A DNA stretch of 60,335 nt from Patescibacteria group bacterium (GCA_023473595.1 JAMCYV010000011.1:1-60335); one strand, 5' to 3'; shown: positions 15,545 through 17,920, numbered from the stretch's first letter. Notes: generated from the letters alone by a model not told the origin. A program made the numbers and translations.

Positions 15545-17920
15545 ATGCCTAAAAATTCTGAATTCACCGTTAAGAAAATAAAAGAAATTTCTAAAAAAGA
15601 GGTTAAGGCAAAAGATAAGCCTATTTTAGGAAAAACTATAAAGCTAGATTTGAAACCAGTGAAGGTTAAAAATCCGGCTAAGGGGAAGACTTTAAAAAAT
15701 TCGACAAAAAAGCCAGTTCTAAAAAGACAGGAAAAACCATTGACAAAGCCAAAAAAGATAGAAAAAGTAGTTAAAAAAACGACGCCTGAGGCGGCTAAAG
15801 CTGAAAAACTAGTTCGAGAATCTTTTAAAGCAGAAAAACCCACCCCGAAAGATACTCAAAGATTCAGGGAGCCGAAAATAACCCCTTCCAAAGAAGGAGA
15901 ATATGGGGCATCCCAGATTCAGGTTTTAGAGGGGCTTCAGGCAGTCAGAAAAAGGCCAGGAATGTATGTCGGAGGGACCGGCAAAGAAGGTCTCCATCAT
16001 CTTATTTGGGAAGTCGTTGACAATGCTATTGACGAGGCGATGGCTGGCTATGCCAAAAATGTCGAAGTAATTATTTATAAAGACGGCAGCGCTTCTATTT
16101 CCGATGACGGCCGCGGGATTCCAGTAGAAAAACACAGGCAGACAGGAAAATCGGCTTTAGAAACCGTTCTTACCATCCTTCATGCCGGCGGAAAGTTTGG
16201 TGGCGGCGGATATAAAGTTTCCGGCGGCCTTCATGGTGTCGGTGTTTCTGTTGTTAACGCCCTTTCGACTTATCTTCGGGCGGAGGTTTCGCGTGACGGC
16301 AAGATTTATGCTCAGGAATACAGAAACGGCGGCAAGCCGGTATCAGGGCTGAAAACTGTTGGAACGTCAAAAAATACCGGCACTACCATTTCATTTATGC
16401 CCGATGCTCAAGTTTTTGAGTCGACTGAATTCGATTTCAATACCATTATCGAAAGATTAAGACAATACGCCTACCTCACTAAAGGAGTGAAAATCAAGCT
16501 TGTTGACCAAAGGCAGGAGAGAAGCTACAGTTTCTATTTTGAAGGCGGGATTAAATCCTATGTCGAGCATATGAACCGAAATAAAGCTTTGGTGAATGAA
16601 CCTGTTTTCTATGTTGATAAAGATGTCAACGGTACCAATGTCGAGGTGGCAATCCAATACACTGATGCATTTACCGAAAACGTAGTTACTTTTGCCAATA
16701 CGATTAAGACTCCCGAAGGTGGGACCCATCTCACCGGTTTCAGAGCGGCGATTACAAGGGTGATTAACGATTATGCTAAAAAATCAGGGCTTCTTAAAGA
16801 CTCCGAAGGGTCTCTCACTGGTGATGACGTGAGAGAAGGGCTTACGGCGGTTATCTCAGTAAAACTTGCTAATCCGCAATTCGAAGGCCAGACCAAGTCA
16901 AAGCTGGGCTCACCGGAAGTTAGAAATCAGGTTGAAAGCGCTTTAAATGAGTACTTCAGCTACTATTTAGAAGAAAACCCCAATGAGGCCAAAAAAATCA
17001 TCGGAAAATGCGCTCTATCTGCTAGGGCGAGGATTGCCGCAAGGGCGGCCAGAGATACAGTCATCCGAAAAGGCGCCCTAGAAGGGATGACTCTGCCGGG
17101 AAAACTCGCTGATTGCAGCGGCAAAGATCCAGCTAGTTCTGAAATTTATATAGTTGAGGGTGATTCAGCAGGTGGTTCGGCAAAGCAGGGGCGGGACCGA
17201 TCGTTCCAAGCCATCCTTCCTTTAAAAGGTAAGATTTTAAACGTTGAGAAAGCTCGGCTTGATAAGATGCTCGCTTTTGAAGAAATCAAGGCTTTAATAA
17301 TTGCCCTAGGGATGGGGATTGGCGACAATTATGACTATTCAAAGCTTAGATATCACAGGGTGATTATTATGACGGACGCTGACGTCGATGGAGCTCATAT
17401 CCGCACGCTTCTTTTGACATTCTTCTACCGTTATTATCCGGATCTTGTTACAAACGGGAATATCTATATTGCCCAGCCGCCTCTTTATGTTGTTACCAAA
17501 GGCAAGGAGAAAATCTATGCTTATTCCGACGAAGAAAAAGCCAAGGTTCTTAAAACTTTGGGGGTAAGTGATCAGGCTGTTGAGACCGAGATTGAAATGG
17601 CGGAAAGCGAAGAAGAAGTGGAAGAGACGGAGGAGACAGAAGAAGAGATTCTTCGACAAGCTCAGGATGACACGGAAAAGGAAAAGGCACCAAGGGTGGC
17701 TAGGGCCAGCATCCAAAGGTACAAAGGCTTGGGAGAAATGAATCCCAACCAGCTTTGGGATACGACGATGGATCCAGAAAAGAGGATTTTGCTTCAGGTT
17801 AAGATTAATGATGCCCAGGAAGCGGATGAAATCTTTACGACTCTTATGGGCGACGTGGTCGAGCCCAGAAAGAGATTTATCCAGACCCATGCAAAGAATG
17901 TAACAAATCTTGATGTATAA
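15545..17920 (+). CDS. gyrB: DNA gyrase subunit B with lysine-rich N-terminal extension and acidic internal insertion
   Basis: [83 protein letters not shown] aaagggagg. No in-frame ATG between 15545 and the conserved core. Confidence 0.95.

What the first reader, a model, noticed from the sequence alone, without database searches (positions are those of the whole stretch)
17575..17705. Acidic insertion in GyrB that contains an inverse copy of the TGTCAT element, in frame
Just before the universally conserved [12 protein letters not shown] motif, GyrB has an extra segment: [47 protein letters not shown]. The nucleotides encoding ILRQAQDD (ttcgacaagctcaggatgaca, 17652-17672) are the reverse complement of tgtcatcctgagcttgtcgaa. 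That matches the head of the intergenic elements at 55702 (tgtcatcctgaacttg) in 15 of 16 positions. An intergenic palindromic repeat therefore appears to have inserted in frame into an essential gene and been retained as a surface loop. This is analogous to the in-frame Rickettsia palindromic elements.
Basis: partly seen in the sequence, partly recalled or inferred. Interest (0 to 1): 0.6.

Follow-up and report, generated by a model that had tools for sequence, protein, structure and literature searches.

The report
Hairpin repeat unit inside gyrB loop
One copy of a short hairpin DNA repeat that litters this tiny Patescibacteria genome sits in frame inside a floppy acidic loop of DNA gyrase B. 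It adds about nine amino acids and is an ordinary new example of a known kind of repeat (CGTC-tagged REP / Ssn-related motif, which includes some Rickettsia palindromic elements).

Summary
Window 17652-17672 (minus strand) reads TGTCATCCTGAGCTTGTCGAA. The whole 25-nt unit GTCAT-stem-loop-stem-GAATC is present at 17647-17671 and is translated as (E)ILRQAQDD.

It is not chance. A covariance model built from 92 other genomic units scores it 24 bits (E about 1e-3). It also matches 23 of 26 bases of the units that flank a small GIY-YIG nuclease gene elsewhere in the genome.

The family is the published NTS/SRM, or CGTC-tagged REP, family, and exact Neisseria NTS consensus matches occur in this genome. 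Units sit in frame in at least 14 other housekeeping genes, including uvrC in this window.

The interpretation needs correcting. The 48-aa acidic segment is not the insertion. It is an old, hypervariable, predicted-disordered loop found in all 30 relatives aligned, at the site where E. coli GyrB carries its 170-aa domain. Only about 9 residues come from the repeat.

The closest relative (84% identical GyrB) lacks the unit and has a loop 7 residues shorter. The loop is too diverged to show a clean empty site.

The copy is solo, has a broken stem, and is most likely a neutral, decaying passenger. Verdict: new member of a known kind, of modest interest.

The parts
15545..17920 (+). gyrB ORF, 791 aa and intact, with all four GyrB Pfam domains
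   Evidence: PF02518, PF00204, PF01751, PF00986. Alignments with relatives.
17567..17710 (+). Hypervariable acidic loop S675-S722 in the Toprim/tail region, predicted disordered. It lies at the position of the E. coli GyrB 170-aa insertion.
   Evidence: Present with variable length and sequence in all 30 relatives aligned. The PDB alignment leaves query residues 68-118 opposite E. coli GyrB 556-732. AlphaFold2 gives pLDDT below 50 for residues 680-717, while the flanks are above 80.
17644..17673 (-). Solo GTCAT-hairpin unit (CGTC/TGTC-tagged REP, SRM-like). The core GTCATCCTGAGCTTGTCGAAGAATC is at 17647-17671 and is read on the plus strand as E701 ILRQAQDD709. The stem carries one C.A mismatch.
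   Evidence: 23/26 identity to the C20 units; 24.0 bits, E about 1e-3; the family hairpin is no longer the minimum-free-energy fold.
17926..17982 (.). Head-to-head pair of units in the gyrB-gyrA spacer, starting 6 nt after the gyrB stop codon. The + unit at 17926-17957 matches the SRM pattern. The - unit at 17956-17982 is degenerate (GTTAT head).
   Evidence: and (26.5 and 17.3 bits).
35876..35947 (.). Second in-frame case in the window: a 72-nt head-to-head doublet (24 codons, VIPTKVEGSLGKFTLSEVEWARDD) inside the UvrC RNase H-like endonuclease domain.
   Evidence: Pfam UvrC_RNaseH_dom spans residues 256-425 across the insert.
20700..21072 (+). Cassette of unit, small GIY-YIG (Ssn-like) gene at 20763-20978, and inverted unit. 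It is one of six such cassettes in the genome.
   Evidence: PF01541, 69 bits; flanks GTCATTGCGAGG...AATC and its inverse; 13.9 and 14.9 bits.
55701..55730 (+).
   Evidence: (40.4 bits; DNA hairpin -6.4 kcal/mol, z = -3.9).

Best explanation
The motif is a genuine solo unit of the genome's GTCAT-tagged hairpin repeat family. That family is the CGTC/TGTC-tagged REP family, also described as NTS or Ssn-related motifs (SRM).

The unit became part of gyrB in the window's own lineage. It landed in an already existing, length-tolerant, disordered acidic loop, at the same site where E. coli GyrB carries a 170-aa domain.

In the family's native form the unit is an ssDNA hairpin with a 5' GTC tag. In Neisseria and Wolbachia such hairpins are bound and cut by small GIY-YIG 'Ssn' nucleases. 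This genome has six such genes, each bracketed by inverted units. One of them (genome contig C20:23492-23707) is bracketed by the same GAGCTTGTCGA loop subtype as the gyrB copy.

How units multiply is not known. Here the unit lies on the antisense strand and is simply read through as (E)ILRQAQDD. The frame is kept because only frame-preserving outcomes survive in an essential gene.

The copy now has a C.A mismatch in its stem and no partner unit. It is therefore most likely an immobile, slowly decaying, selectively neutral passenger rather than a functional part of gyrase.

Shown: family membership, absence from relatives, the location and disorder of the loop, and the generality of in-frame copies. 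Inferred: the insertion event itself, neutrality, and involvement of the Ssn-like nuclease.
For: Family membership:
- Covariance model, 24.0 bits, E about 1e-3, with this copy left out of training.
- 23/26 identity to the C20 units, including one compensatory C-G to T-A pair. No simulated genome had a hit with 6 or fewer mismatches.

Family reality:
- 156-169 units against about 20 expected.
- The published SRM pattern gives 22 hits against 0.9 expected, including exact NTS consensus matches (consensus from PMC11893778).

Link to the nuclease:
- Six GIY-YIG genes are bracketed by inverted units. The C20 gene carries the gyrB subtype.
- The C20 protein has more than 4,700 single-domain homologues of about 95 aa, at 65-73% identity across phyla.
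- It is 47% identical to the paralogue flanked by canonical NTS.

Lineage-specific gain:
- The closest GyrB (84% identical) lacks the peptide and the GTCAT, and its loop is 7 aa shorter.
- In the 30 relatives' gyrB loci, the only sub-threshold hit inside a gene is one at E = 0.69 in L004. Clear units sit just outside gyrB in several relatives.

Permissive site.

Generality: in-frame units lie inside or between Pfam domains of 14 other genes.

Literature: intragenic single and dimeric CGTC REPs, many in replication and repair genes, are described in PMC3733652.
Against: - No clean empty site. In the DNA alignment with the closest relative the gap is 15 nt inside the unit plus two 3-nt gaps upstream, because the loop is low-complexity and diverged.
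- A 25-26-nt unit is not a multiple of three, so an extra indel or the loss of a partner must be assumed.
- The copy fails the published SRM search pattern.
- It does not fold into the family hairpin with nearest-neighbour DNA or RNA parameters.
- No same-genus genome was available.
Confidence: 0.8

Rival explanations
1. The insertion was originally a head-to-head doublet, as in nearly all other in-frame cases here. The upstream partner, a GACCGAAGTGGAG-type unit, has since decayed into the acidic codons, so the present solo unit is a remnant.
For: - The other verified in-frame cases are doublets or trimers reading V-I-P...D-D or ...M-T.
- In the genome the GAGCTTGTCGAG subtype is regularly paired with a GACCGAAGTGGAG-type unit.
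- The upstream string AGCGAAGAAGAAGTGGAAGAGAC resembles ACCGAAGTGGAGAGATC if a GAA-repeat expansion is allowed (by eye).
- Di Nocera et al. note that many singletons are remnants of dimers.
Against: - The covariance model finds no plus-strand hit between 17567 and 17643, even at E up to 10.
- No GTCAT head lies upstream.
- The similar string GAAGAAGTGG(C/A)AGAG also occurs in the closest relative, which has no unit. It is therefore probably just acidic coding sequence.
Confidence: 0.15
2. The unit is kept by selection as a working cis element in gyrB. It could be a target for the Ssn-like ssDNA nuclease, or a gyrase- or RNA-level regulatory hairpin acting with the doublet in the gyrB-gyrA spacer.
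For: - A head-to-head pair lies 6 nt after the gyrB stop codon, and units flank gyrB in several relatives.
- E. coli REPs are known gyrase targets (cited in PMC3733652).
- On the sense RNA strand the stem mismatch becomes a U.G wobble (read from the sequence).
Against: - The family hairpin is not the predicted fold on either strand, with z-scores near 0.
- The stem is broken on the GTCAT strand, which is the strand Ssn reads (PMC11893778).
- No relative has a unit in the loop.
- There is no conservation to argue from.
Confidence: 0.04
3. The resemblance is coincidental, or the segment is an assembly artefact that joined repeat-containing reads into gyrB.
For: - The genome is a 33-contig metagenome-type assembly, 85% complete, and reads could not be inspected.
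- The copy fails the strict SRM pattern.
Against: - The statistics.
- The ORF stays open and the conserved GyrB blocks continue on both sides.
- A 25-nt chimera that preserves the frame inside a 60-kb contig is very unlikely.
Confidence: 0.02

Closest known systems
CGTC-tagged REPs (families CGTC-1 to -4; Di Nocera, De Gregorio and Rocco 2013, PMC3733652)
   Same: - A 5' unpaired (C/T)GTC tag, and a stem starting with A-T and T-A pairs.
- A 4-5-nt loop and a short 3' tail beginning with C.
- Mostly head-to-head dimers.
- Copies inside ORFs as singles or dimers, many in replication and repair genes. Here the hosts include gyrB, uvrC, a uvrD-like gene, recG, dinB, mpg and xerC/D.
   Different: - The host is a Patescibacteria genome, a phylum not among the five listed in that paper.
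- This genome holds many stem and loop subtypes, including ones with tandem G.A mismatches and with long or nested loops.
- The gyrB copy has a broken stem.
NTS / Ssn-related motifs with SsnA GIY-YIG ssDNA nucleases (Chenal et al. 2025, PMC11893778)
   Same: - Exact matches to the NTS consensus CGTCATTCCCGCGMAVGCGGGAATCYRG occur in this genome.
- The unit-gene-unit cassette architecture is the same.
- The nucleases are single-domain GIY-YIG proteins of about 95 aa, each with its own hairpin variant.
   Different: - The gyrB copy itself does not fit the published SRM search pattern.
- That paper does not mention coding-region copies or Patescibacteria.
- Nuclease activity and cd10448 membership were not tested here.
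Rickettsia palindromic elements (RPEs; Ogata et al. 2000 and 2002, as summarised in PMC10969869)
   Same: - Selfish palindromic repeats retained in frame in housekeeping genes of a reduced genome.
- They add peptide segments at surface-compatible sites.
- RPE-4 and RPE-6 are CGTC REPs according to PMC3733652.
   Different: - Classic RPE-1-type elements are about 100-150 bp and encode a conserved peptide.
- Here the unit is 25 nt, solo, and encodes 9 residues within an older loop.
E. coli GyrB 170-aa domain insertion (PDB 3NUH; Schoeffler, May and Berger 2010, recalled from memory)
   Same: It occupies the same position in the Toprim region, between the PPLY...GK..Y.Y hairpin and [12 protein letters not shown].
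   Different: The E. coli insert is a folded functional domain. The loop here is acidic, hypervariable and predicted disordered.
GTAG REPs / REPINs with RAYT transposases
   Same: - Short tagged hairpins in inverted pairs.
- An associated small gene is bracketed by the repeats.
   Different: - The tag is GTCAT, not GTAG.
- The genome's one RAYT-like gene (genome contig C8:9729-10409) is bracketed by a different palindrome.
- The associated protein here is a GIY-YIG nuclease, not an HUH/Y1 transposase.

Membership tests
CGTC-tagged REP superfamily (PMC3733652) | Unpaired terminal tag CGTC, often TGTC | tested here: met
   The minus strand reads cgTGTCAT... at 17673-17667. G, T and C of the tag are invariant in the 92-unit alignment.
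CGTC-tagged REP superfamily (PMC3733652) | Stem of 8-9 bp that begins with complementary A-T residues in positions 1 and 2 | tested here: inconclusive
   The A-T and T-A pairs are present. The third pair is a C.A mismatch, followed by C-G and T-A, then tandem G.A/A.G and G-C (read from the sequence). The minimum-free-energy fold does not recover the stem. The sister copies at C20 have the intact outer stem.
CGTC-tagged REP superfamily (PMC3733652) | Predominantly head-to-head dimers; single units also occur inside genes | tested here: met
   Head-to-head pairs are common across the genome. The gyrB copy is single, with no partner found at E up to 10. Single intragenic units are reported in the paper.
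NTS / Ssn-related motif (PMC11893778) | Fits the degenerate SRM search pattern HGTCWYN(0-2)YYVSBRHN(0-5)WNVSBRGN(0-2)RNCYNB | tested here: not met
   The gyrB copy does not match. 22 other genomic units do, against 0.9 expected. I therefore file the genome's family under SRM and the gyrB copy only as a divergent relative of it.
NTS / Ssn-related motif (PMC11893778) | The motif flanks a small single-domain GIY-YIG (ssnA-like) gene on both sides | tested here: met
   C20:23492-23707 (95 aa, PF01541 60.7 bits) is bracketed by GTCATCCCGAGCTTGTCGAGGGATC at 23388 (+) and 23791 (-). These units are 23/26 identical to the gyrB copy.
NTS / Ssn-related motif (PMC11893778) | The nuclease belongs to CDD cd10448 and cuts the motif as ssDNA | not testable with these tools
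   No CDD library is available here. NCBIfam gives no family above its cut-off, and the PDB holds no close homologue. Biochemistry is needed.
Rickettsia palindromic elements | Palindromic repeat inserted in frame in ORFs and translated | tested here: met
   The ORF is open through the unit. 14 further genes have Pfam domains on both sides of, or spanning, a unit. Translation itself was not shown.
Rickettsia palindromic elements | Element of about 100-150 bp encoding a family-specific conserved peptide (RPE-1 type) | tested here: not met
   The unit is 25 nt and encodes 9 aa.
GTAG REP / RAYT (REPIN) system | GTAG tag, and a RAYT gene flanked by the same repeats | tested here: not met
   The tag is GTCAT. 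The only Y1 transposase-like gene is flanked by TTACAAAGGACGGACCTTTGTAA palindromes.
MITE | Terminal inverted repeats with a target-site duplication | tested here: inconclusive
   No direct repeat flanks the unit...GAAGAAGAG | unit | ACGGAAAAGG.... The empty site could not be delimited.

The most novel reading that the evidence does not exclude
Ssn-type GIY-YIG nucleases and their GTCAT hairpins may form an active mobile system in Patescibacteria that repeatedly writes short peptide loops into essential enzymes. It may favour DNA-metabolism genes: 7 of the 15 internal hosts here are gyrB, uvrC, a uvrD-like gene, recG, dinB, mpg and xerC/D, echoing the bias reported for CGTC REPs in Proteobacteria. 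On this reading the solo, broken gyrB unit would be the footprint of an incomplete excision or a half-insertion, a direct trace of the still unknown mobility mechanism.
Probability: 0.15. Interest if true: 0.65.

Novelty: new member of a known kind. Interest (0 to 1): 0.3.

Why it matters
This case shows that the tagged-hairpin repeats tied to Ssn single-strand nucleases reach into Patescibacteria, and even into an essential topoisomerase gene.

It also shows that lineage-specific peptide inserts in these reduced genomes can come from selfish DNA landing in loops that were already permissive. For annotation, short odd peptides such as [17 protein letters not shown] or DSGQARMT inside conserved proteins mark repeat units, not functional motifs.

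The gyrB case adds little new mechanism. The genome-wide pattern is the more useful lead for working out how these repeats move. That pattern is six nuclease cassettes, each with its own hairpin variant, and about a quarter of units lying inside genes, many of them DNA-repair genes.

Tried and rejected
- **Published SRM pattern.** It finds 22 units but not the gyrB copy. I therefore used a structural finder and a covariance model.
- **Decayed upstream partner unit in the loop.** None found at E up to 10.
- **Units inside the gyrB loop of relatives.** The covariance-model scan of 30 loci found clear units only outside the gene. A 5-mer peptide screen of 120 GyrB homologues gave only stray acidic 5-mers. 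That screen is insensitive.
- **Clean empty site in the closest relative.** The loop is too diverged.
- **DNA and RNA folding of the gyrB copy.** The family hairpin is not recovered. Nearest-neighbour rules also under-rate the intact G.A-type copy from C20, so this is weak evidence.
- **Rfam at gathering thresholds.** Only rRNA and tRNA in the window.
- **NCBIfam and PDB searches for the Ssn-like protein.** No informative match.
- **A RAYT as the mobilising enzyme.** Rejected, because the only Y1 transposase-like gene has its own unrelated palindromes.
- **Literature search for palindromic elements in Patescibacteria.** Nothing found.

Full report
**The observation.** gyrB is an intact 791-aa ORF at 15545-17920. 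TGTCATCCTGAGCTTGTCGAA lies at 17652-17672 on the minus strand. Read on the minus strand, the whole unit is cgTGTCAT-CCTGAGCTTGTCGAAG-AATCTc (17673-17644): a GTC tag, a stem that opens with A-T and T-A, a loop, the returning stem and a 3' C. On the plus strand it encodes E701-I-L-R-Q-A-Q-D-D709. The head matches the intergenic unit at 55702 in 15 of 16 positions.

**It is not chance.**
- TGTCATCCTGA occurs 14 times in the 775-kb genome against 0.35 expected.
- Eleven of those 14 are hairpin units, and gyrB is the only one of them inside a real gene.
- The gyrB copy is 23/26 identical to two units at genome contig C20. One of the three differences is a compensatory C-G to T-A change.
- Twenty Markov-simulated genomes produced nothing with fewer than 7 mismatches.
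- A covariance model built from 92 other short units, with the gyrB copy left out, scores it 24.0 bits over the full model, E about 1e-3. That is the best non-training hit in the window.

**What the repeat family is.**
- The genome holds about 156-169 units of the form GTCAT(T/C)C-variable hairpin-(G/A)GAATC(T/C), against about 20 expected. They are often arranged head to head.
- Earlier notes from this scan pointed me to two papers, which I read and tested against this genome.
- Chenal et al. 2025 define the Neisseria NTS as CGTCATTCCCGCGMAVGCGGGAATCYRG. They also define a degenerate 'SRM' pattern, both tied to small GIY-YIG ssDNA nucleases called Ssn.
- This genome contains exact NTS matches. 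It has 22 SRM-pattern hits against 0.9 expected.
- Di Nocera et al. 2013 describe the same objects as CGTC/TGTC-tagged REPs. Their features are 8-9-bp stems starting A-T, mostly head-to-head dimers, and copies inside genes, especially replication and repair genes. They equate Rickettsia RPE-4 and RPE-6 with these REPs.

**The associated nuclease genes.**
- The genome has 12 small GIY-YIG ORFs.
- Six are bracketed by inverted units, each with its own hairpin variant. One is in this window at 20763-20978.
- One, at C20:23492-23707, is bracketed by the same GAGCTTGTCGA loop subtype as the gyrB copy.
- That protein has more than 4,700 single-domain homologues of about 95 aa, at 65-73% identity across unrelated phyla.
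- It is 47% identical to the paralogue that carries canonical NTS flanks.
- The only Y1 transposase-like gene has different palindromes of its own.

**The acidic segment is not the insertion.**
- All 30 order-, class- and phylum-level relatives whose gyrB loci were fetched carry a poorly conserved acidic loop of 35-60 aa between YAY.D.EK..IL and [12 protein letters not shown].
- Seven other lineages in that search lack roughly 38 aa there.
- Against solved structures, the flanking blocks align to E. coli GyrB 489-555 and 733-804. The loop therefore sits where E. coli has its 177-residue gap, the known domain insertion of PDB 3NUH.
- An AlphaFold2 model from 59 homologues gives pLDDT below 50 for residues 680-717, with confident flanks.
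- So the repeat landed in an old, permissive, disordered loop and accounts for about 9 of its 48 residues.

**Gain in this lineage.**
- The closest GyrB in 5.8 billion proteins is 84% identical (P0002, a 2.3-kb JGI contig). Its loop is 7 residues shorter, and the alignment gap falls at ILRQAQDD.
- Its DNA has no GTCAT there, and the main gap of 15 nt falls inside the unit.
- The alignment is not crisp, because the loop is low-complexity. I could define neither an empty site nor a target duplication.
- The covariance model finds clear units just upstream or downstream of gyrB in several relatives. Inside their genes it finds nothing better than one hit at E = 0.69 in L004.
- Parsimony therefore favours a gain in the window's lineage.

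**In-frame copies are general in this genome.** Stop-free frames run through units in many long ORFs. Pfam domains lie on both sides of, or span, the units in these genes:
- a PEP synthase-like enzyme
- a UvrD/AddA-like helicase-nuclease
- RecG
- a U32 peptidase
- UvrC (window 35876-35947, exactly 24 codons)
- a MiaB-like enzyme (two sites)
- a XerC/D-like recombinase
- an amidohydrolase
- a DinB-type polymerase
- Mpg glycosylase (two sites)
- a FemAB-like protein
- prepilin peptidase
- a ComF-like protein
- TruB

An RsmI-like protein has units as a C-terminal tail. About a quarter of all units are intragenic. All of these other cases are doublets or trimers; only the gyrB copy is solo.

**State of the gyrB copy.**
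- It has a C.A mismatch at the third stem pair.
- It does not adopt the family hairpin as DNA or RNA.
- It has no detectable partner unit.
- Its 25-26 nt are not a multiple of three. Either a nearby indel in this indel-tolerant loop restored the frame, or it is the remnant of a doublet.
- I see no evidence that it has a function of its own.

**Verdict.** This is a new member of a known kind: an intragenic CGTC-REP/SRM unit, here in gyrB of a Patescibacteria genome. I found no paper describing such repeats in this phylum, but the phenomenon is published for other phyla and has been noted many times in this scan.

Noticed in passing
window 35876-35947: A 72-nt head-to-head doublet of the same repeat family lies in frame inside the UvrC endonuclease domain (VIPTKVEGSLGKFTLSEVEWARDD). 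Both units are too degenerate for my strict finder. I did not align UvrC relatives to delimit the insert.
   Followed up: partly
genome contigs C5, C7, C10, C11, C20, C23, C24, C25, C26 (coordinates): Seven of the 15 genes with internal in-frame units act on DNA: gyrB, uvrC, a uvrD/addA-like gene, recG, dinB, mpg and xerC/D. A ComF-like gene and truB are also hit. This mirrors the bias toward replication and repair genes, and the truB hits, reported for CGTC REPs in Proteobacteria (PMC3733652). I did not test it statistically because no full gene call was available.
   Followed up: partly
genome contig C8:9442-10437: A RAYT/IS200-like Y1 transposase gene (226 aa) is bracketed by a separate perfect 23-nt palindrome, TTACAAAGGACGGACCTTTGTAA. 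The palindrome occurs only here, six times, and two copies lie in frame inside the transposase ORF itself (peptides NYKGRTFVRR and NNKGPSFVIRE).
   Followed up: partly
window 27677-27874 and genome contigs C4, C8, C15, C29: Six further small GIY-YIG genes have no hairpin flanks. They sit directly beside tRNA genes or, in the window, just after the 16S rRNA gene. They look like a different subfamily with a different kind of target.
   Followed up: no
window 15545-15895: The lysine-rich N-terminal extension of GyrB (about 117 aa) is predicted disordered (pLDDT 30-37 for residues 1-79). Similar basic extensions occur in a few relatives (P0005, P0012). Another finding already covers it.
   Followed up: no
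P0004, P0005 and other GyrB homologues: Several Patescibacteria GyrB homologues carry an intein after DSAGG (PF14890; 880-1190 aa). The window's GyrB does not.
   Followed up: no
window 17926-17982; loci L008, L009, L013, L017, L021, L023, L028: Units of the family sit immediately upstream or downstream of gyrB in many order-level relatives and in the window's gyrB-gyrA spacer. This may reflect the usual 3'-end placement of REPs, or a link with gyrase genes.
   Followed up: partly
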